From NCBI GenBank assembly GCA_036744835.1, contig DAIOHD010000001.1, positions 736,064-800,063 of the forward strand: 64,000 nt of DNA, written 5' to 3'. The position numbers and the translations under genes are program-made. A model generated the notes under the pieces. The model did no database searches. It was not told the DNA's origin and saw only the letters and a program-made list of their open reading frames with translations. Positions 547-37,783 of the stretch are shown here, piece by piece. The DNA is from Candidatus Magasanikiibacteriota bacterium (GTDB taxonomy: Bacteria > Patescibacteriota > Patescibacteriia > Magasanikbacterales > GWA2-37-8). Position 1 is the stretch's first letter. Every line of letters begins with the position of its first letter.

Positions 547-920
547 CAGTAGTGTTCGGTTTATTTTTTTTAAAAAAATAAACCAAAAAGACCCTCCCTT
601 TGGTTGCCTTTATAATAACTTAAAAAACTGTCTTTGGCAACTGGATAAATTTCGTTTAATTTATTTAAAATCCGCCTTTTCCACAAACACTTCAACCTAT
701 AGGTTGAAGTGTTTGTTTTGGCTAAAATAAAGGGATTATTCCCTCCTCTTCCTCAAGAGGAGGGCTAGGGTGGAATTTTTTAAAAAGACTCTCCCCTAAC
801 CTCCGCCTTCATCCAAGCTCCGTTAAAGCTACGCTGGACTACGGACGGACAAGCTCTCTCTTACATAAAAGAGGGGAATAAAAAACCCGCGCAGATATGC
901 ACGGGGTATGAAAGAACTTT

Positions 921-1585: not shown

Positions 1586-1642
1586 ATTTGGATATTTTTT
1601 TATTCGGAGTATTCGGATATAATTTGTAGATTCGGATTATAT

Positions 1643-2029
1643 TTATTTTTTCATCTTCTTCGCCACTTTCTTCACTTTCTTTTGCGCTACAGCCATAGCT
1701 CTATCCACCGCATCTTTGGCAACATCGCCAAAATCCTCCACTTTATCATCCATAAAATCTCTAGCTTTTTTGGTGATGAAATTTTTCACCATTCCACCGG
1801 TAGTTTCTCTAGCCATCCCAAGCAAACTAACTATCCCCTCTACTTTATCTTGGATGGAATTTATAGTGTCCGTAATTCTCTGAAGACGTAAACGAAATTC
1901 TTCTACAATTGTATTTACATTTTTCAAAATCCTGGCGGCGTAATAAAACATGTAACAAATAAACGCCGTAACCCAGATGATACAAAACGAAATGACGATA
2001 TATAAAATATCTTTTGAATTTTCTAACAT
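1643..2029 (-). CDS. membrane-anchored coiled-coil protein, DUF948-like architecture (single N-terminal TM, helical body, Lys-rich tail)
   Basis: N-terminal hydrophobic segment ILYIVISFCIIWVTAFICYMFYY followed by helical region. Resembles DUF948 proteins only by architecture. Confidence 0.45.
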   Translation of the reverse strand: MLENSKDILYIVISFCIIWVTAFICYMFYYAARILKNVNTIVEEFRLRLQRITDTINSIQDKVEGIVSLLGMARETTGGMVKNFITKKARDFMDDKVEDFGDVAKDAVDRAMAVAQKKVKKVAKKMKK

Positions 2030-2107
2030 AGATCCTCCTTATTAAATTTTAATTATATTTAGATTATAACATTTTTTAAAATATTCGACAAGTAATTTGT
2101 TTAAAAT

Positions 2108-2300
2108 AACTCAAAACTCAAATGTCAAATCTCAAAACTACAATTTAAAACCTTAAAACCCTGTCATTGCAAGGAATGAAATGACGAAGCAATACCACAA
2201 AATTCAGAAAGCAGTGGGATTACTTCATCCGCTTTGCGGATTCGTAATGACACTTATCGTTAGTTTTGACATTTAAGGTTGTGGTTTTAACTTTTGAGAT
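2108..2300. repeat. MITE-like element copy A (composite): arms homologous to copies at 7847-7962 and 20487-20584, with a GTCATT-family element (2163-2253) nested in the core
   Basis: Left arm aactcaaaactcaaatgtcaaatctcaaaac matches copy B left arm. Right arm tagttttgacatttaagg..ttttgagatt is its inverted counterpart. Core replaced by gtcattgcaagg...cgtaatgacac. Confidence 0.55.
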
Positions 2301-2304
2301 TAAT

Positions 2305-4767
2305 CTAATTTCTAATCTCTGCCCCAAACTTATCTTTCAATATTTTCACTATCTCCCCCATCACATCATCCACCTCTTCGTTCTTCAAAGTACGAGTGGA
2401 ATCGGAAAAAACAAAATGATACGCCATACTTTTAAATCCCTCTTTGACATGTTCGCCTTCATAAACATCAAACAATTCCACGAATTTCAAAATCGGTGAA
2501 ATATTTTGCAAAGATTTTAAAATTTCTTGATGTGTAACTTTTTTTTCTGCCACAAAAGCCAAATCACGAGTAGGTTCTGGAAATTGAGATAATGTTTGAT
2601 AAATAAAATCTTTTTTGGTTTTCAAAATATCTCGCAGATCGCTGAGATTTATTTCTACCACTCCAACTCTATCATTCAAATCCCATTTTTTGGCAGTGAG
2701 TGGATTGAGCTCATATACAAAACCTATTTTTTGCTCTTGCACCATCATCTCCCCGGCTCTGCCTGGATGCATATAACCTTTGATTTCTTTAATTTCTCTT
2801 AAATCAAAATTGAGTTGCAAATTTTCCATCACTTTTTCCAAAACCAAACGCGCTTTGATAAAACCGTTGTCACTTTTTTTCTCATAATTTATCGCGGTCA
2901 AGAAAACATCCTGACGTGGTAAAAGCTCATCTTCATTAGAAATTTCTCTTGGCCCCGGTAATTCAGATAAATATGTTTTTCCAATTTCAAAAATATCCAC
3001 CCGATCAAAATTTTCCATATTCTTTTGGACATTTTCCAATAAGTTTGGTAACAATTCTCGACGTAAATAAGGTTTTTCACTAGACAAAGGATTATCTAGT
3101 TCCAAATATTTATTTTTATCTTCACCCAAACGATCTATTTGCAAACCACTAACAAAAGAATAATTATCAACTTCATCGTAAACCAATTCTTTGGTCAAAA
3201 TATTTCGCAAATTGTGTTCCAAATCGCGTAAAATATTTTTTTCTGGAGGAGTAATTTCAAACTCCGGCATAGTGCTTTCGATTTTATCATAACCATAAAT
3301 CCTACCAACTTCTTCAATCAAATCTTCAGAAAGAGATATGTCTTTGGTAGCGCGCCAAGTCGGTATTTTGACACTCAATCCGTCTTTGCCTTTTTCTTTA
3401 ACTTCAAAACCCAGTCTTTGCAAGATACTGATGATTTCTTTTTTCTCAATTTGCACTCCAAGTTTTTTACAAATATCGCTCATGCTAGTTTGTAGCGGTC
3501 CAGTAGCTAGGTGGAAGTTCTTTTTATCTTCTACATTACTTATCACTTTGGCCTCAGAACAAAGCTCCAGCACCATCTCCACCGCTTTTTTCAAAGCTAT
3601 TTCCGCCATATTGGGGTCCAGGCTTTTTTCAAAACGAGCAGAGGAATCCGTGCGACTATCATAATGTAACGCGGTTTTACGCACACAAACTGGATCAAAA
3701 TTCGCAGCTTCAAAAATAATCTCTGTGGTATTGTCATTTATCCCACTATAAAATCCGCCCATCACCCCAGCAAGCGCGATAGGTTTTTCATCATCTGCAA
3801 TAACCAAATCGTTTTCCGTCAAAGATAATTCTTTTTCATCCAACAATTTGAATTTTTCTTTGTCAGTTGCTGTGCGAACAATGATGTGTTTTTGATTTTT
3901 GTTTTTTGTTTGGAGAGTTTGAGCGTCAAATGCATGAAGTGGTTGTCCCAAATCAAACATTATATAGTTAGTAATATCAACAATATTATTGATACTGCGC
4001 AAACCGATAGATGACAGCGCTCTTTGTAACCAGAGAGGCGACGGGCCAACTTGCACTCCGCTTATCGCTACAGCCATATAGCGCGGACAAAGCGGTTCAT
4101 CCTCCACTGTAACTTTCAATTTTATTTCTTTGCCCGGAGTTATTTCTTTTGTTTCGTAAGCACCAAATTCACGAGGAAAAAGCACAGCCACTTCGCGAGC
4201 GATACCATAATGTCCCCAGAGATCAGGACGATTGGAAAGAGATTTGTTGTCAATTTCCAAAATCACATCGTCTAATCCAAGAGCTTTTTTCAAATCCACC
4301 CCAACTTTCAAATTTAGCATGGTCAAATCCAAAATTTCTTTTTCATCTTTGAGCGGAAACATTTCAGTCAATCCGATTTCGCTCCCCGCACAAATCATGC
4401 CATAGGAATCTATGTCTCTGATTTTGGTCGGTACGATTTCCACCAACTCCCCCTCGCCGTGCCAACGAACTTTAGCACCTACTTTGGCCACTGCTACGAG
4501 CATGTCAGTAGTAACGTTACTGCCACCACAAACAATCTGAACTTTCTCTTTTCCCAAATCTACTTGGCAAAGTTTCAATTTATCAGCGTTGGGATGTTTA
4601 TCGGCTTTAAGCACCTTACCCACTACAATATTTTCTAAATTATCACCTTGTTTTATAATATTTTCCACTTCTACTGTACTCAATTTCAATTTCTCCGCCA
4701 CTATTTCGGGGGTGATGGAGTCAGGGATGGTAACGTATTTTTTCAGCCAATTGTATGAAATTAACAT
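2305..4767 (-). CDS. pheT: phenylalanine--tRNA ligase beta subunit
   Basis: 820 aa; MLISYNWLKKYV start, B3/4 and tRNA-binding regions, C-terminal FDVYEG..SMAY motif typical of PheT. Confidence 0.95.
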   Translation of the reverse strand: MLISYNWLKKYVTIPDSITPEIVAEKLKLSTVEVENIIKQGDNLENIVVGKVLKADKHPNADKLKLCQVDLGKEKVQIVCGGSNVTTDMLVAVAKVGAKVRWHGEGELVEIVPTKIRDIDSYGMICAGSEIGLTEMFPLKDEKEILDLTMLNLKVGVDLKKALGLDDVILEIDNKSLSNRPDLWGHYGIAREVAVLFPREFGAYETKEITPGKEIKLKVTVEDEPLCPRYMAVAISGVQVGPSPLWLQRALSSIGLRSINNIVDITNYIMFDLGQPLHAFDAQTLQTKNKNQKHIIVRTATDKEKFKLLDEKELSLTENDLVIADDEKPIALAGVMGGFYSGINDNTTEIIFEAANFDPVCVRKTALHYDSRTDSSARFEKSLDPNMAEIALKKAVEMVLELCSEAKVISNVEDKKNFHLATGPLQTSMSDICKKLGVQIEKKEIISILQRLGFEVKEKGKDGLSVKIPTWRATKDISLSEDLIEEVGRIYGYDKIESTMPEFEITPPEKNILRDLEHNLRNILTKELVYDEVDNYSFVSGLQIDRLGEDKNKYLELDNPLSSEKPYLRRELLPNLLENVQKNMENFDRVDIFEIGKTYLSELPGPREISNEDELLPRQDVFLTAINYEKKSDNGFIKARLVLEKVMENLQLNFDLREIKEIKGYMHPGRAGEMMVQEQKIGFVYELNPLTAKKWDLNDRVGVVEINLSDLRDILKTKKDFIYQTLSQFPEPTRDLAFVAEKKVTHQEILKSLQNISPILKFVELFDVYEGEHVKEGFKSMAYHFVFSDSTRTLKNEEVDDVMGEIVKILKDKFGAEIRN

Positions 4768-4901
4768 ATTTTATTAAATTTTTAATTTTTAATTTTACAA
4801 TTTTTAATTAATTTTCAATTTCGTAATTTCGCCCGCCTGCCATTCGCCTTATGGCTCTAGGCCTTTGGCGGGCAGGTATTCTTTCATACGTTCGTAAGTA
4901 A

Positions 4902-5933
4902 CTAAAATTGTTTTATAAAACTAAGATTGCCACTTTGTAACAATCTCACATCATCTATCCCATATTTGAGCATCACCATACGAGTCAAGCCAAAACCAAA
5001 AGCAAAACCACTATAAACTTGTGGATCAAGACCGCCAGCTCGCATCACATTGGGGTGGATCATCCCGGCGCCAAAAATTTCCATCCAACCAGTATGTTTA
5101 CAAACACCACATCCTTTTCCACCACAAAGCAAACAAGTCACTTCTCCGTTTACTCCCGGTTCAACAAACGGATAAAATTTCGGACGCAAACGAACTTTAG
5201 TTTCCGGACCAAACAAATATTGTGCTACATTTTCCAAAACCGCTTTCATGTGACCAAAGTTAATATTTTTATCCACCACCACACCTTCCAATTGATAAAA
5301 AGTATGTTCGTGTCTAGCATCTGTAGCTTCATTGCGAAAACAACGACCCGGGGTAATCATTCTCAAAGGTGCACCGTATTTTTCCATCGCCCGAACTTGG
5401 TTGGAAGAAGTATGAGTGCGCACCAACCAATTTTCATGATTTTTAATATAAAAAGTATCCTGACTTTCTCTGGCCGGATGGGTGGGTGGAATATTTATCG
5501 CTTCAAAATTGTAGTAATCACTTTCTAATTCCGGGCCATCCAACACCATAAAACCCATGGATGTAAACAAATCTTCCAAATCTTTTTGTACAATAGAATT
5601 GGGGTGTATATGTCCGCTTTCTTTTTTAGGTAAATAAGGTTGACTCAAATCAGCTTTTTCCTGGGCGATTATTTGCGCAAATCCAGCACTACTGAGTTCT
5701 TCTCTTTTACTATTTATCGCCTCTTCCAGTTCTTTTTTGATTTCATTAAGCATTTGTCCGATATTTTTCCTTTCTTCTGCGTTTAAATCTTTCATGCCTT
5801 TCATGAGCTCGGTCAATTCCCCATTTTTACGACCTAAATATTTATTTTCTAAATCATTTAACTCTGCTTCATTTTTACTTTCCAAAATTATAGGCAAAGC
5901 TTTTGTTTTTAATTGTTGCAATTTTTCTTGCAT
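4902..5933 (-). CDS. pheS: phenylalanine--tRNA ligase alpha subunit
   Basis: 343 aa; class II aaRS motifs (FRNEATDARHEHTFYQLEGVVVD, GFAFGFGLTRMVM). Confidence 0.95.
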   Translation of the reverse strand: MQEKLQQLKTKALPIILESKNEAELNDLENKYLGRKNGELTELMKGMKDLNAEERKNIGQMLNEIKKELEEAINSKREELSSAGFAQIIAQEKADLSQPYLPKKESGHIHPNSIVQKDLEDLFTSMGFMVLDGPELESDYYNFEAINIPPTHPARESQDTFYIKNHENWLVRTHTSSNQVRAMEKYGAPLRMITPGRCFRNEATDARHEHTFYQLEGVVVDKNINFGHMKAVLENVAQYLFGPETKVRLRPKFYPFVEPGVNGEVTCLLCGGKGCGVCKHTGWMEIFGAGMIHPNVMRAGGLDPQVYSGFAFGFGLTRMVMLKYGIDDVRLLQSGNLSFIKQF

Positions 5934-22705: not shown

Positions 22706-22813
22706 AATTAATGCTAATATTATAGCATAAAAAACTGAAATAAAAAGTTCGATTCCTACCGATACAATACACATAATTAAAATACTGCCCTTGTGGGCAG
22801 TATTTTAATTATG

Positions 22814-22885
22814 TGATCTCGCTAGGAATCGAACCTAGATTGCAAGCTCCGCAAGCTTGCGTCCTATCCGTTGAACGACGAGACC
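22814..22885 (-). tRNA. tRNA-Arg, anticodon GCG as read (72 nt, 4-nt variable loop, no encoded CCA)
   Basis: Manual cloverleaf on reverse complement: acceptor ggtctcg/cgagatc, D gttc-aacggata-ggac, anticodon arm caagc-ttGCGga-gcttg, T ctagg-ttcgatt-cctag. Anticodon call depends on this fold. Confidence 0.6.
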
Positions 22886-35852: not shown

Positions 35853-36638
35853 TTAAATAGTATTAGAATTATTATTTTCAAACCTCTCCACAAACTCTTT
35901 TGCTAAACGTTCGTATGCTTTTGCACCCTTACCACTGGGTTCATAATGAAAAATACTTTTACCGTATGATGGAGCTTCGGCTAAACGAACAGTTCGTGGA
36001 ATAACTGAACGGAAAATATTGTTAGGAAAATATTTATACAATTCATGCAAAACTTCCTCAGACAAACGATTGCGACTATCAAACATAGTCAAAACCGCTC
36101 CTAAAACACTCAATTCAGCTTTGACATTTTCTTTTACCAAAGCTATAGTTTTGAGCAATTGACCCAAACCCTCCAAAGCATAGTACTCGGCTTGCACAGG
36201 GATAAGAATATGATCAGCGGCAACTAAGCCATTGAGAGTTAAAATACCAAGTGACGGCGGACAATCAATGATAATATAATCATAAGCGTGTTTGGCCTGT
36301 GCTAAAAGATCGTCAAGCTTAAATTCACGTCTATCCAAATTTACCAATTCTACATTAGCTCCAGCTAAATCTTGCGTGGCCGGTAAGATTCGCAAACCAA
36401 CATGTTTAGAATCAACTATCACATCGTGAACTGGATGGTCGTTTACCAAAGCATGATATAAACCTTTTTCAAGCTCATTATGATTGATACCTAAACCAGA
36501 AGTTGCATTAGCTTGCGGGTCTAAATCTACAAGCAAAACAAACTTGCCCAAATCAGCAAGCCCAGCAGCTAAATTCACTGCTGTGGTGGTTTTACCCACA
36601 CCACCTTTTTGATTAACTACGGAAATTACTTTTGACAT
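35853..36638 (-). CDS. parA: chromosome partitioning ATPase ParA (Soj)
   Basis: Deviant Walker A NQKGGVGKTTTAVNLAAGLA. Start at MSKVISV (track ORF from 36650). Confidence 0.9.
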   Translation of the reverse strand: MSKVISVVNQKGGVGKTTTAVNLAAGLADLGKFVLLVDLDPQANATSGLGINHNELEKGLYHALVNDHPVHDVIVDSKHVGLRILPATQDLAGANVELVNLDRREFKLDDLLAQAKHAYDYIIIDCPPSLGILTLNGLVAADHILIPVQAEYYALEGLGQLLKTIALVKENVKAELSVLGAVLTMFDSRNRLSEEVLHELYKYFPNNIFRSVIPRTVRLAEAPSYGKSIFHYEPSGKGAKAYERLAKEFVERFENNNSNTI

Positions 36639-36733
36639 AAAAATACCCAAAAATTGACCGAATTACGGTTAATGTTATTTTATCATAAGCTTGACAAAAA
36701 ATCAAAATTTGGTACAATTGTACACATAAAAAT

Positions 36734-36815
36734 GCCCTGGTGGCGGAATTGGTAGACGCGCACGACTCAAAATCGTGTACCGCAAGGTGTGAGAGTTCGA
36801 TTCTCTCCTAGGGCA
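36734..36815 (+). tRNA. tRNA-Leu, anticodon CAA as read (class II, long variable arm)
   Basis: gccctggtggcggaattggtagacgcgcacgactCAAaatcgtgtaccgcaaggtgtgagagttcgattctctcctagggca; cloverleaf with variable stem taccgcaaggtg. Confidence 0.75.
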
Positions 36816-36817
36816 CT

Positions 36818-36856
36818 AAAACAAAATACAGACTTTATGTCTGTATTTTGTTTTAT
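36818..36856 (+). terminator. strong terminator after tRNA-Leu (aaacaaaatacagac-tttatg-gtctgtattttgttt + T)
   Basis: 15-bp perfect stem. Confidence 0.65.
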
Positions 36857-36861
36857 AGGGT

Positions 36862-36985
36862 TCCCCGGGAGAGAATCGAACTAGGAAAGGGAGAAAACGT
36901 GAGTTTTCTCTTGCTGAGGAAAGGTATTGGAAAACCCGAAGGTTTTCCAAGGAGGAAGCCGAAGGCTGACGACGTGAGTCTTCTC
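36862..36985 (-). ncRNA. candidate structured RNA (~125 nt): closing helix ggagagaa/ttctctcc, three internal hairpins, minus-strand cUUCGg tetraloop. 3' end carries an inverted 15-nt copy of the tRNA-Leu T-arm/acceptor (agttcgattctctcc)
   Basis: Hairpins ttggaaaacc-ttcg-ggttttccaa, gagaaaac-tcac-gttttctc and agcc..ggct on the minus strand. GC-rich island in AT-rich spacer. Overlapped only by an implausible ORF (36848-37156). Confidence 0.4.
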
Positions 36986-36987
36986 TC

Positions 36988-37395
36988 CTATATCAAATCT
37001 TTATACTCTTTAACTTCATCCTCAAACTTCACTTCCTCTTTCGTAATCTCCCTAACCTCTTTTGGTAATTTTGAAATATCAAAAAATCTAATTGGCTTAC
37101 CTAAACTCTTAAACATTTGGATTTCAGCCAAAACACCATCACTAACCTCGCCATAAACCCACAATTCATCGCTTCTTTTCATTAAATTATTATTACCATT
37201 CCGCACCAAATCTCTTTCTACCAATTCATATAAATAATAACCAAACGTGTTAAATGGATTTACCGGTACAACTCCTTGTTCAAAAGCGTGTTTGCAAATC
37301 AACATTCTTTGATGAAAATTTTTACAAGACTGAGCAGTAAAAATCACCTTCTTTTCTTCTTGCAACCCTTCTGCAATATGTTCAAAATTATTCAT
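36988..37395 (-). CDS. hypothetical protein, possibly nucleoside 2-deoxyribosyltransferase-like / DUF4406-like fold
   Basis: VFTAQSC...ELWVYGEVSDGVLAEIQMFKSLGKPIRFF pattern reminiscent of that superfamily; weak. Confidence 0.4.
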   Translation of the reverse strand: MNNFEHIAEGLQEEKKVIFTAQSCKNFHQRMLICKHAFEQGVVPVNPFNTFGYYLYELVERDLVRNGNNNLMKRSDELWVYGEVSDGVLAEIQMFKSLGKPIRFFDISKLPKEVREITKEEVKFEDEVKEYKDLI

Positions 37396-37405
37396 AATAT
37401 TTGTT

Positions 37406-37783
37406 TTACTTCTTTTCTTTCATTAAATTACCAATTTTATCCAAAAATTCTTTTATCGCCTCAACATCTTTTTCTTCTTTTATTCTATCCAAATTACTGT
37501 TAAAATTGACAACTAGACTATTTAGGCTTTCTATCGCTTTAGCGTCACTTAATTTTAAAACATACGGAAGAATGTTTGGATTTTTTTCTTCCCCTGAAAA
37601 ATACTCTTCATAAGTTTGTATCGGCTTCATTTCTTCAAATCTTGATAATTGTCTACAAAAGTCTATCATCAAATAAGCATTTACATAATCCATGCTCAAC
37701 TTTACACCACCACCAAATTGCATATCTACTTGCCTTTTTTCTTCAAGAGGTAAGCTGATTTCTTCGGGTTTAAATTTTTCCAT
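37406..37783 (-). CDS. hypothetical protein
   Basis: 125-aa ORF co-oriented with the neighbouring gene, 10 bp upstream of it. Confidence 0.4.
   Translation of the reverse strand: MEKFKPEEISLPLEEKRQVDMQFGGGVKLSMDYVNAYLMIDFCRQLSRFEEMKPIQTYEEYFSGEEKNPNILPYVLKLSDAKAIESLNSLVVNFNSNLDRIKEEKDVEAIKEFLDKIGNLMKEKK

What the first reader, a model, noticed from the sequence alone, without database searches (positions are those of the whole stretch)
36862..36985. Structured RNA candidate beside tRNA-Leu carrying an inverted copy of the tRNA 3' end
A GC-rich ~125-nt segment immediately follows the tRNA-Leu terminator. Read on the minus strand it folds into a closing helix (ggagagaa/ttctctcc) around three hairpins: a 10-bp stem capped by a cUUCGg tetraloop (ttggaaaacc-ttcg-ggttttccaa), gagaaaac-tcac-gttttctc, and a CCTTCGG-containing stem. 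Its minus-strand 3' end (ctagttcgattctctcc) is an exact 15-nt inverted copy of the tRNA-Leu T-arm/acceptor (agttcgattctctcc, 36794-36808). It could be a tRNA-like 3' element of the upstream minus-strand mRNA, an sRNA, or a relic of an integration event at the tRNA.
Basis: seen in the sequence. Interest (0 to 1): 0.65.

Follow-up and report, generated by a model that had tools for sequence, protein, structure and literature searches.

The report
Small hairpin insert beside tRNA-Leu
The GC-rich, hairpin-rich segment next to tRNA-Leu is a real, strain-specific 131-bp insertion built partly from inverted and direct copies of the tRNA's own 3' end, not a conserved RNA gene. Its layout resembles an undescribed family of structure-conserved elements that sit behind the same tRNA in other candidate-phyla-radiation bacteria.

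Summary
**Observation: confirmed.** All the described helices are present, and the 15-nt inverted tRNA copy is real. It extends to 20 of 23 nt.

**What it is**
- The segment is a discrete insertion at 36858-36988, flanked by a TATA duplication. It lies between the native bidirectional terminator of tRNA-Leu(CAA) and the stop codon of a DUF7768 gene.
- Relatives with 91% ParA identity and the same gene order lack it. They carry other small inserts at the same tRNA.
- No Rfam family matches, and no other copy was found in any collection searched.
- No recombinase was found by a low-sensitivity search of the window.

**A related family elsewhere**
- Other CPR bacteria carry elements with the same layout behind tRNA-Leu(CAA): hairpin, inverted T-arm copy, about 100 nt of GC-rich body, then a 17-19-nt direct repeat of the tRNA 3' end.
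- These show strong compensatory covariation, an empty site in a strain encoding the identical ParA protein, and 1 versus 2 tandem units.
- A covariance model of them aligns the window element full-length but scores only 5 bits, which is not significant.

**A wider pattern**
- An inverted T-arm copy placed mirror-symmetrically behind the terminator also occurs at tRNA-Arg in this window.
- It co-varies with the T-loop in a relative.

**Best reading:** a recombination or repair-derived insert at a tRNA-flank hot spot, possibly a young or degenerate member of that family. A standalone small RNA is unlikely.

The parts
36734..36816 (+). tRNA-Leu(CAA) gene with no encoded CCA. Its positions 52-74 (36794-36816) are the source of the repeats.
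   Evidence: ARAGORN; Rfam tRNA at 56.8 bits.
36817..36855 (.). Native bidirectional terminator hairpin: 17-bp perfect arms (36817-33 and 36839-55), loop TTTAT, A-rich 5' flank and T-rich 3' flank.
   Evidence: the repeat finder pair I10; fold. It is homologous to the terminator of relative L082 with one compensatory pair change (local alignment score 41 against a shuffled maximum of 24). The simple terminator scan did not list it, because the A/T arms extend the stem past the T-run.
36854..36857 (.). Left copy of the 4-bp TATA duplication (or microhomology) at the insertion junction.
   Evidence: Removing 36858-36988 plus one TATA gives GTTTTATATCAAATC, colinear with L082 ATTTTATATAAAATC (sequences; coordinates).
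36858..36988 (.). The 131-bp strain-specific insertion, which contains the reported element. GC 50%, purine-rich on the plus strand.
   Evidence: Absent from L082-L091, which have 91% ParA identity and the same synteny. Composition. No other copy in the window, in phage or plasmid collections, or in viral contigs.
36860..36882 (-). Inverted copy of the tRNA-Leu 3' end. On the minus strand it reads AGTTCGATTCTCTCC-CGGGGA-A-C, that is T-loop, T-stem 3' strand, acceptor 3' strand and discriminator. It matches the tRNA at 20 of 23 positions.
   Evidence: With the tRNA 3' end it forms a roughly 90-nt quasi-palindrome centred on the terminator loop.
36868..36875 (.). 5' strand of the closing helix (GGAGAGAA). 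It pairs with 36981-36988.
   Evidence: Folds.
36891..36910 (.). Hairpin 1: GAGAAAAC-GTGA-GTTTTCTC (8 bp; GNRA-type loop on the plus strand). It is paralogous to the outer helix: ACGTGAGTTTTCTC at 36897-910 matches ACGTGAGTCTTCTC at 36972-985.
36927..36950 (.). Hairpin 2: TTGGAAAACC-CGAA-GGTTTTCCAA (10 bp; cUUCGg loop if read on the minus strand).
   Evidence: The 20-nt core also occurs by chance as a terminator in an unrelated viral contig.
36957..36980 (.). Two short stems: AGCC-GAA-GGCT (36957-67) and GAC-GTGA-GTC (36971-80).
36981..36990 (+). Direct 10-nt copy (TTCTCTCCTA) of tRNA 36801-36810 (tRNA positions 59-68). Its first 8 nt are the 3' strand of the closing helix.
   Evidence: blastn; sequence.
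36989..36992 (.). Right copy of the TATA duplication.
36988..37395 (-). DUF7768 gene converging on the tRNA. Its stop codon TAG (36988-36990) spans the right insertion junction: one base lies in the insert and two in the flanking TATA.
   Evidence: ORF list; Pfam PF24963 at E 1.8e-9.

Best explanation
**What it is.** The segment is the body of a 131-bp non-coding insertion (36858-36988). It landed in the few bases between the native bidirectional terminator of tRNA-Leu(CAA) and the stop codon of the convergent DUF7768 gene.

**How it is built**
- One end is an inverted copy of the adjacent tRNA's 3' end (positions 74 to 52).
- The other end is a short direct copy of the T-stem 3' strand (positions 59-68).
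- Between them is a patchwork of perfect GC-rich hairpins containing short internal duplications.
- Because the two end copies are complementary, they close the whole insert into a multi-hairpin fold.
- The inverted copy also extends the terminator into a long quasi-palindrome with the tRNA 3' end.

**How it most likely arose (inferred).** It is a product of recombination or repair at a tRNA-flank hot spot. Two routes fit:
- (a) It is a trimmed copy of a small protein-less element that inserts at the T-loop or 3' end of tRNA-Leu(CAA) and duplicates the tRNA 3' end, as seen intact in other CPR genomes.
- (b) It is a templated insertion copied from the neighbouring tRNA.

**What it does (inferred).** It is not an independently conserved RNA gene. 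In this genome it is passively transcribed as the 3' UTR of DUF7768 ahead of the shared terminator.

**Shown versus inferred**
- Shown: the insertion boundaries, its absence in relatives, the repeats, the structure, and the existence and covariation of the analogous family.
- Inferred: the insertion mechanism and the lack of function.
For: **The window copy is a bounded, strain-specific insert**
- Relatives L082-L091 (ParA 91%, same order DUF7768 / tRNA-Leu / parA / parB / relA) lack the segment.
- Their terminator is homologous to the window's. Homology resumes exactly at TATAT and the DUF7768 stop codon, which delimits a 131-bp insert flanked by TATA.

**The locus is a hot spot**
- L082 has its own 38-nt GC-hairpin insert flanked by CAC at the tRNA end.
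- One or two cassettes of about 100 nt, each bounded by a duplicated tRNA 5' end, lie upstream of the tRNA.
- L088 and L085 carry different downstream DNA.
- A LAGLIDADG gene follows the tRNA in L105-L108.
- Many contigs break at this tRNA.

**Repeats and internal make-up**
- The inverted and direct tRNA copies are confirmed.
- Internal direct repeats are enriched: 13 repeated 6-mers against 5.8 expected, p 0.018. All stems are perfect Watson-Crick.

**No sign of a known or independent RNA gene**
- No Rfam family matches.
- There is no promoter-like site upstream of the element on the plus strand.
- No other copy occurs in the window.

**Intact analogues behind tRNA-Leu(CAA)** in L007, L133, L134/L136 and L103/L104
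- They carry 17-19-nt direct repeats of the tRNA 3' end.
- L135 encodes the identical ParA protein but is an empty site.
- L103 and L104 have identical flanks but 1 versus 2 tandem units.
Against: - No tyrosine or serine recombinase was detected in the 64-kb window or the analogous loci. This was only a phmmer search with XerD and gamma-delta resolvase as queries, so sensitivity was low.
- The window's direct repeat is only 10 nt. Eight of those are forced by the closing helix, so it may not be an att duplication.
- The analogous family shows long-term structural selection. This argues for function in that family, and possibly in the window copy.
- A covariance model of that family does not score the window element significantly, so a link to the family rests on layout alone.
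- The inverted T-arm copy also occurs at tRNA-Arg without any insert and co-varies with the tRNA in a relative. It may therefore have a function of its own that this explanation leaves open.
Confidence: 0.5

Rival explanations
1. The window element is a divergent but functional member of a family of structured RNAs co-transcribed with tRNA-Leu(CAA) as a 3'-trailer RNA. Its closing helix and 3' tail mimic the tRNA 3' half. It would act in cis on tRNA folding or processing, or in trans after release.
For: - The family in L007, L133, L134 and L103 has a three-way junction supported by covariation: 88.7% of cells paired against 73% in shuffles, 18 of 36 pairs with double changes against 7.2 expected, 0 of 500 shuffles as high, and slid controls at 40-49%.
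- The tRNA-sense strand folds better in L007 and L103 (z -5.5 and -4.3, against -3.3 for the opposite strand).
- G.U cells outnumber A.C cells on that strand, 6 to 2.
- The hairpins after the tRNA in L007 and L133 lack a U-tract, so read-through is expected.
- The unpaired acceptor tail is 100% identical to the local tRNA in all four sequences.
- The window element aligns to the model in the same order: P1, GAAC, GGA, hairpin, GAGG.
Against: - The window score is 5 bits, E 0.39.
- The window copy lacks the acceptor tail and the third helix.
- It lies behind an efficient-looking terminator and has no promoter of its own.
- It is absent from the closest relatives.
- The family itself is patchy: L131 and L135 lack it.
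- No function is known, and the alignment used for the pair counts was fitted to the model.
Confidence: 0.2
2. The element and its analogues are protein-less mobile cassettes whose folded single strand is itself the recombination site, in the manner of integron attC sites or the CTX-phage attP hairpin. The stem formed by the inverted and direct T-arm copies reproduces the duplex of the tRNA gene's T-loop and T-stem. A recombinase encoded elsewhere recombines it with the tRNA gene, and the cassette carries a replacement tRNA 3' end and terminator.
For: - Structure is conserved while sequence is barely conserved.
- The stem sequence tracks the local tRNA: GGACTTGAAC in L007, GGGAGTTGAAC in L133 and L134, GAGAATCGAAC in L103 and the window.
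- Direct repeats start in the T-loop at positions 56-57.
- Unit number varies, 1 versus 2, and an occupied site and an empty site occur in strains encoding the identical ParA protein.
- Sizes of 108-128 nt fall within the attC range as recalled by the analyst (57-141 nt; not checked against a source). That attC sites lack sequence conservation and are recognised by structure is stated in the abstract of PMC2727003.
Against: - No integrase was found nearby.
- No free or circular form or second insertion site has been seen.
- A circle of about 190 nt is very small.
- The empty site L135 can equally be explained by deletion between the direct repeats. Its terminator start matches the proximal copy and the rest matches the distal copy.
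- The window copy has lost the long direct repeat.
Confidence: 0.15
3. The inverted tRNA copy is an extension of the terminator palindrome, generated and maintained by intramolecular template switching at the hairpin or selected as part of the tRNA terminator module. The GC-rich body is unrelated filler produced by iterative snap-back or templated synthesis during repair of a break.
For: - Inverted copies of tRNA positions 53-65 lie mirror-symmetrically (within 1-4 nt) behind the hairpin at six independent tRNA loci. Six of 54 loci have 2 or fewer mismatches, against 0 of 54 in each of three controls.
- These include tRNA-Arg in this window with no body.
- In L124 the T-loop change G57A is matched by C to T in the copy, behind a different hairpin.
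- L125 retains the acceptor complement.
- The window body has duplicated motifs, perfect stems and a TATA microhomology junction.
Against: - All copies stop exactly at the complement of G53. Simple fold-back copying does not predict this.
- The acceptor part decays while the T-arm part stays perfect in several cases, which suggests selection rather than mechanism alone.
- The bodies in L007 and L103 show no excess of internal repeats, yet they show covariation.
Confidence: 0.15

Closest known systems
Partial tRNA genes (att-site remnants) left by integrase-mediated insertion into tRNA genes. Examples are genomic islands at leuX, tycheposon arrays in Prochlorococcus, and the T-loop sublocation class of tRNA integration sites.
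   Same: - tRNA-Leu(CAA) is the target.
- Analogues have a direct repeat running from the T-loop to the discriminator.
- The incoming DNA supplies a replacement tRNA 3' end.
- Tandem units and presence/absence between strains are seen.
- The literature describes partial tRNAs flanking and separating integrated elements, plus degenerate remnants (bioRxiv 10.1101/2020.12.28.424599; PMC9897764).
- The T-loop sublocation class is recalled from established knowledge (Williams 2002), not tested here.
   Different: - The inserts are only about 130-190 bp and encode nothing.
- No integrase is nearby.
- They contain an additional inverted copy of the T-arm and a body with conserved secondary structure. 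Neither is a feature of ordinary att scars.
- The window copy has only a 10-nt direct repeat.
Integron attC sites, and the folded attP of CTX phage
   Same: - An imperfect inverted repeat encloses a variable, structured centre.
- The site is defined by structure rather than sequence (PMC2727003).
- The size range is similar, by the analyst's recollection of attC lengths.
- Short non-coding cassettes can be arrayed.
- The outer inverted-repeat motif ends in ..GAAC, paired with GTTC.. in the target. This resembles RYYYAAC/GTTRRRY (comparison by eye).
   Different: - There is no IntI or Xer gene and no attI platform.
- The target is a tRNA T-loop.
- The repeat boundary is at positions 56-57, not G|TT.
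- Extrahelical bases and bottom-strand preference could not be tested.
tRNA 3' external transcribed spacer RNAs, such as 3'ETS-leuZ of E. coli (recalled, not tested)
   Same: A non-coding RNA segment transcribed directly downstream of a tRNA-Leu gene that could be released by tRNA 3' processing.
   Different: - There is no sequence or structural similarity.
- The window copy lies behind a strong terminator.
- The CPR elements carry tRNA-derived repeats.
MITEs and REP/BIME-type extragenic palindromic insertions
   Same: - Small, non-coding and GC-rich relative to the genome.
- Hairpin-forming, and located between convergent genes.
- Short flanking duplication (TATA here; CAC for the L082 insert).
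- Strain-specific.
   Different: - There is a single copy in 64 kb.
- The inverted repeat is only 8 bp and subterminal.
- One end is a copy of the neighbouring tRNA.

Membership tests
Any Rfam 15 family | Covariance-model score at or above the family's gathering threshold | tested here: not met
   Only tRNAs reach threshold in the window. In a permissive scan of 36600-37100, nothing overlapping the element is credible; the best hits are microRNA and leader models far below threshold. The analogues in L007, L103, L133 and L134 also have no match.
tRNA or tRNA-like domain (minus strand) | Foldable cloverleaf or acceptor/T-arm minihelix recognised by tRNA models | tested here: not met
   ARAGORN and the Rfam tRNA model find only tRNA-Leu on the plus strand. 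The minus strand has a T-loop, T-stem 3' strand and acceptor 3' strand, but no matching 5' strands (sequence).
att-site remnant of tRNA-targeted site-specific integration | Direct repeat of the tRNA 3' end (T-loop to discriminator) flanking the inserted DNA | tested here: inconclusive
   The window has only 10 nt (36981-90 = 36801-10), largely forced by the closing helix. The analogues have 17-19 nt perfect repeats.
att-site remnant of tRNA-targeted site-specific integration | Integrase gene in or next to the inserted DNA | tested here: not met
   phmmer with XerD and gamma-delta resolvase against all ORFs of 80 aa or more in the window, L007, L103, L104, L082, L085 and L088 gave no hit at E of 10 or less. 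This is a single-sequence search with modest sensitivity.
att-site remnant of tRNA-targeted site-specific integration | Occupied and empty sites in close relatives | tested here: met
   The window is occupied and L082-L091 are not. L134 and L136 are occupied while L135, which encodes the identical ParA protein, is empty.
CPR tRNA-Leu(CAA) 3'-flank structured element (defined here; models R1 and R2) | Significant full-length match to the covariance model | tested here: not met
   - R1: no full-length hit.
- R2: 36868-36996 on the plus strand, 5.0 bits, E 0.39 in a 601-nt search.
- For comparison, L103 and L104 score 41.6-43.5 bits, E about 1e-6.
- There were no hits at E of 1 or less in 414 kb of other loci.
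CPR tRNA-Leu(CAA) 3'-flank structured element (defined here; models R1 and R2) | Layout: hairpin after the tRNA, inverted copy of tRNA positions 53-66 ending in GAAC about 51-58 nt after the tRNA end, about 100 nt of GC-rich body, closing helix with a direct T-stem copy | tested here: met
   The offset from the tRNA end to the inverted copy is 51-53 nt in the window and L103, and 58 nt in L007. The closing helix and hairpins are shown.
CPR tRNA-Leu(CAA) 3'-flank structured element (defined here; models R1 and R2) | 3' tail identical to the tRNA acceptor 3' strand plus discriminator | tested here: not met
   The window has TATATC after CCTA, whereas the tRNA has GGGCAC.
Integron attC-type folded recombination site | Adjacent IntI integrase and attI; R''/R' core motifs; extrahelical bases; bottom-strand recombination | tested here: inconclusive
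   No tyrosine recombinase was found. The motif resemblance, RYYRAAC/GTTYRRY, was judged by eye only. Strand selectivity and extrahelical bases cannot be tested with these tools.
MITE | Terminal inverted repeats, target-site duplication, multiple genomic copies | tested here: inconclusive
   There is an 8-bp subterminal inverted repeat and a TATA duplication, but no second copy in 64 kb. The rest of the genome was not available.

The most novel reading that the evidence does not exclude
CPR bacteria harbour a previously undescribed class of protein-less, structure-conserved elements of about 110-130 nt (170-190 nt with their hairpin and tRNA 3'-end copy) attached to the T-loop or 3' end of tRNA-Leu(CAA).

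Their closing helix is made from an inverted and a direct copy of the host tRNA's own T-arm, so it co-evolves with the tRNA. They would be one of two things:
- folded-DNA recombination cassettes that use the tRNA gene as their attachment site;
- tRNA-trailer RNAs that mimic the tRNA 3' half.

The window element would be a young or degenerate member. The inverted T-arm copy behind tRNA terminators, also seen at tRNA-Arg, would be part of the same biology.
Probability: 0.3. Interest if true: 0.8.

Novelty: new variant of a known kind. Interest (0 to 1): 0.55.

Why it matters
**For annotation.** The window element should not be called an sRNA or a tRNA-like gene. It is a strain-specific insert at a tRNA-flank hot spot.

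**More broadly.** The follow-up turned up two things that are not in Rfam and that I could not find described:
- A covarying three-way-junction element behind tRNA-Leu(CAA) in several CPR lineages. Its terminal helix is copied from, and tracks, the host tRNA's T-arm.
- A recurrent, co-varying inverted T-arm copy placed mirror-symmetrically behind tRNA terminators.

**If these are recombination sites,** they would be a tRNA-targeted analogue of integron attC sites, in organisms whose mobile elements are poorly known.

**If they are RNAs,** they would be a new kind of tRNA-linked non-coding RNA.

Either way they bear on how the tiny genomes of CPR bacteria gain and lose DNA at tRNA genes.

Tried and rejected
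**Searches for a known family or another copy**
- Rfam at gathering and permissive thresholds: nothing.
- tmRNA, a permuted tRNA or a tRNA with an insertion on the minus strand: ARAGORN and Rfam find no such gene, and the matching acceptor and T-stem 5' strands are absent.
- Small self-cleaving ribozymes, group I or II intron fragments, 5S, SRP and Y-RNA-like RNAs were considered from motifs. None is supported by Rfam. A group I intron is also incompatible with a direct repeat at the borders (reasoning).
- blastn of the element against phage and plasmid collections: no match.
- Viral-contig scans with body sequences from the window, L103 and L007: 0 hits.
- A 20-nt hairpin core and a T-arm / inverted T-arm pattern each gave one chance match, a viral terminator and a coding region.

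**Searches for relatives**
- The genome-contig scan with ParA was swamped by the ubiquitous ParA family. The top hit was only 64% identical, although it yielded L007.
- ParA homologues P0008 and P0018 led to lineages where the tRNA-Leu flank lacks any such element.

**Ideas tested and dropped**
- Recombinase search in the window and analogous loci: none found.
- attP-arm relic, that is double-stranded protein-binding arms: disfavoured, because the helices show compensatory changes.
- Primer-binding-site idea, with the inverted copy pairing to the tRNA 3' end for priming: rejected, because in L103 and L007 the complementarity does not reach the acceptor end.
- Second fold-back origin of the direct repeat: rejected, because the repeat matches the tRNA acceptor and not the complement of the linker.
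- Global MAFFT alignment of the window against L082 misplaced the terminators. A local alignment was used instead.
Full report
**1. What is in the sequence**

tRNA-Leu(CAA) lies at 36734-36816 on the plus strand. It is followed by:
- a perfect 17-bp-arm hairpin with an A-rich 5' flank and a T-rich 3' flank (36817-36855);
- the GC-rich segment;
- the stop codon (36988-36990) of a minus-strand DUF7768 gene.

parA, parB and relA/spoT lie on the other side of the tRNA. Source names attached to ParA and RecG homologues place the organism among Candidatus Magasanikbacteria (CPR/Patescibacteria).

- The 15-nt inverted copy of the tRNA T-arm is exact and unique, with 0 of 100 shuffles matching it.
- It extends to 23-nt arms with 20 matches.
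- The element is at the 99.4th GC percentile for the window.
- It folds better than all 200 shuffles on either strand.
- The plus-strand 3' end, TTCTCTCCTA, is also a direct copy of tRNA 36801-36810.
- All stems are perfect Watson-Crick pairs, so this one sequence cannot tell which strand, if any, is the functional one.

**2. It is not a known RNA**

Rfam 15 gives nothing at gathering thresholds or in a permissive scan of the region. ARAGORN finds no tRNA or tmRNA on the minus strand. The minus strand carries only a tRNA 3' fragment: T-loop, T-stem 3' strand, acceptor 3' strand and discriminator.

**3. It is a strain-specific insertion in a hypervariable tRNA flank**

Contigs encoding a ParA 91% identical to the window's, with the same gene order, lack the segment.
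- Their terminator is homologous to the window's, with one compensatory pair change (local alignment score 41 against a shuffled maximum of 24).
- Homology resumes at TATAT and the DUF7768 stop codon.
- Removing 36858-36988 and one TATA restores colinearity with the relatives.
- The element is therefore a 131-bp insert flanked by a 4-bp duplication or microhomology.

The same relatives carry other small inserts at this tRNA:
- a 38-nt pair of GC hairpins flanked by CAC immediately after the tRNA;
- one or two cassettes of about 100 nt upstream, each bounded by a duplicated tRNA 5' end, GCCCTGGTGGCGG;
- different downstream DNA in L088/L091 and L085.

Other Magasanikbacteria have a free-standing LAGLIDADG endonuclease gene right after tRNA-Leu(CAA). 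Assemblies often break at this tRNA or inside the element.

No second copy of the element exists in the window, in phage or plasmid collections, or in viral contigs. The body has an excess of short internal direct repeats, p about 0.02. For example, ACGTGAGT(T/C)TTCTC occurs twice.

**4. The same layout occurs elsewhere, and there it is a conserved structure**

A metagenome scan for the inverted T-arm copy followed 85-115 nt later by TTCTCTCC found L103 and L104. Their layout is:
- tRNA-Leu(CAA);
- a 52-nt spacer with a hairpin;
- GGAGAGAATCGAAC;
- an unrelated GC-rich body of about 100 nt;
- an 18-nt direct repeat of the tRNA 3' end.

L103 and L104 have identical flanks but carry one and two tandem units.

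L007 (Paceibacterota) has the same layout built from its own, different T-arm. Its relatives L133 and L134/L136 carry alignable versions. L135 encodes the identical ParA protein as L134 yet has an empty site. L131 also lacks the element. In L134 the hairpin next to the tRNA is a diverged copy of the native terminator, which now follows the direct repeat.

Evidence that the structure is conserved:
- RNAalifold on the three Paceibacterota sequences gives a three-way junction with 12 of 36 pairs showing compensatory change.
- A covariance model built from them finds the L103/L104 copies full-length at 41.6-43.5 bits, E about 1e-6.
- On the four-sequence alignment, 88.7% of cells are paired against 73% in shuffles. 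Eighteen pairs have double changes against 7.2 expected, with 0 of 500 shuffles as high. Slid controls give 40-49%.
- The alignment was fitted to the model, so these counts lean towards the structure.
- The tRNA-sense strand is mildly favoured: better z-scores in L007 and L103, and 6 G.U cells against 2 A.C cells.
- None of these elements matches Rfam.

**5. Is the window element a member?**

The layout matches: the spacing of the inverted copy, a closing helix made from T-arm copies, and GC-rich hairpins. The improved model aligns 36868-36996 full-length in the same order (P1, GAAC, GGA, hairpin, GAGG). The score, however, is 5.0 bits, E 0.39 in 601 nt, which is not significant. The window copy lacks the acceptor tail and the third helix, and its direct repeat is only 10 nt. 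Membership is therefore not shown.

The window arrangement could derive from a family-type arrangement by a deletion of about 47 nt between TA microhomologies. That deletion would have removed the rest of the repeat and a second terminator copy. This is inference.

**6. A wider pattern: inverted T-arm copies behind tRNA terminators**

tRNA-Arg(GCG) in the window (22813-22885, minus strand) has a perfect 21-bp-arm terminator. It is followed, 52-54 nt after the tRNA, by TAGGAATCGAAC, the inverse of its own T-loop and T-stem 3' strand. No body or direct repeat follows.

In relatives:
- In L124 the T-loop is TTCAATT and the copy is GCTAGGAATTGAAC, a compensatory change, behind a different hairpin.
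- L125 has two copies, one on each side of an inserted hydrolase gene of about 900 nt. The older copy retains the acceptor complement.

Across 54 distinct tRNA loci in hand, six have such a copy with 2 or fewer mismatches within 130 nt. None of 54 does in each of three controls. All six are in CPR genomes. All copies end at the complement of G53, and all are mirror-symmetric about the hairpin centre within 1-4 nt (sequences). The window's inverted copy thus belongs to a recurrent phenomenon that is either selected or continually regenerated.

**7. Interpretation**

Shown:
- The reported structure is real.
- It is a bounded, strain-specific insert made partly of tRNA 3'-end copies.
- The locus is an insertion hot spot.
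- A structurally conserved family with the same layout exists in other CPR lineages.

Inferred: for the window copy, the most economical reading is a recombination or repair product at the hot spot. It would be either a trimmed member of that family or a templated insertion, with no independent gene function. On the minus strand it is simply the 3' UTR of DUF7768 ahead of the shared terminator (confidence about 0.5).

Rivals:
- a functional tRNA-trailer RNA (0.2);
- a folded-DNA recombination cassette analogous to attC (0.15);
- palindrome extension plus filler (0.15).

No recombinase was detected nearby by a low-sensitivity search. No free form or transcript data were available.

**8. Comparison with known systems**

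Partial tRNA copies flanking and separating integrated elements are well known. These inserts differ in three ways: they are tiny and non-coding, they carry an extra inverted T-arm copy, and their interior has a conserved fold. attC sites share the principle of structure over sequence (PMC2727003), but their defining integrase and platform are absent here. I therefore rate this a new variant of a known kind. There is a moderate chance, about 0.3, that the family behind it is something new.

Noticed in passing
window 22745-22885 (minus strand): tRNA-Arg(GCG) is followed by a perfect 21-bp-arm bidirectional terminator. Then, 52-54 nt after the tRNA, comes an inverted copy of its own T-loop and T-stem 3' strand (TAGGAATCGAAC, about 22749-22760), a T-run and the recG promoter. 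The copy is conserved in relatives and co-varies with a T-loop substitution in L124.
   Followed up: yes
L082-L089, upstream of the tRNA-Leu (region corresponding to window about 36720-36734): Close relatives carry one or two cassettes of about 95-105 nt between the tRNA promoter and the tRNA. Each is bounded by a duplicated tRNA 5' end (GCCCTGGTGGCGG). Strains differ in which cassettes they hold (A, B or A+B). One cassette contains a T-loop-like AAGTTCGATTC motif.
   Followed up: partly
L105-L108, locus coordinates about 1601-2452 (minus strand), directly after tRNA-Leu(CAA) at 2413-2495: A free-standing LAGLIDADG homing-endonuclease-like gene (Pfam LAGLIDADG_3, E 5.8e-12) starts within a few bases of the tRNA-Leu 3' end in another Magasanikbacteria lineage. 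No direct repeat of the tRNA was found within 1.7 kb.
   Followed up: partly
L082 and relatives, immediately 3' of tRNA-Leu: A 38-nt insert of two similar GC hairpins (GACGCTAAGCGTC and GGGACGCTCAGCGTCCC), flanked by a CAC duplication, sits between the tRNA end and the native terminator. It looks like a REP-like mini-insert.
   Followed up: partly
L085, 3' end of tRNA-Leu: The tRNA's acceptor 3' strand is replaced by CCTTCGGCAC, which does not pair with its own 5' strand but matches the tRNA-Leu of lineage L096. It is followed directly by a ParB-like gene. This is either an integrated foreign element or a chimeric low-coverage assembly.
   Followed up: no
L124 5255-8000; L125 7044-8000: The space between tRNA-Arg and recG is variable in relatives. 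L124 has a 2.7-kb block with an acetyltransferase, TerC, tRNA-Ile(TAT) and an 87-nt tRNA-like gene that ARAGORN calls with a 4-base anticodon (cttg). L125 has a convergent HAD-type hydrolase.
   Followed up: no
L103 about 3100-4480; L104 about 4300-5640: A block of about 1.3 kb at 50-56% GC, in a 32% GC genome, lies just beyond the last tRNA-derived direct repeat. It encodes two small membrane proteins with their own promoter and terminator and looks like foreign cargo at the same hot spot.
   Followed up: partly
window 683-716: A perfect 34-nt palindrome (ACAAACACTTCAACCTA / TAGGTTGAAGTGTTTGT) with no spacer between its arms.
   Followed up: no
window 37406-37783 (minus strand): A 125-aa protein encoded upstream of the DUF7768 gene has no Pfam family apart from a sub-threshold match to the Cpf1 REC2 domain (E 0.007). 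It is conserved next to DUF7768 in relatives.
   Followed up: no
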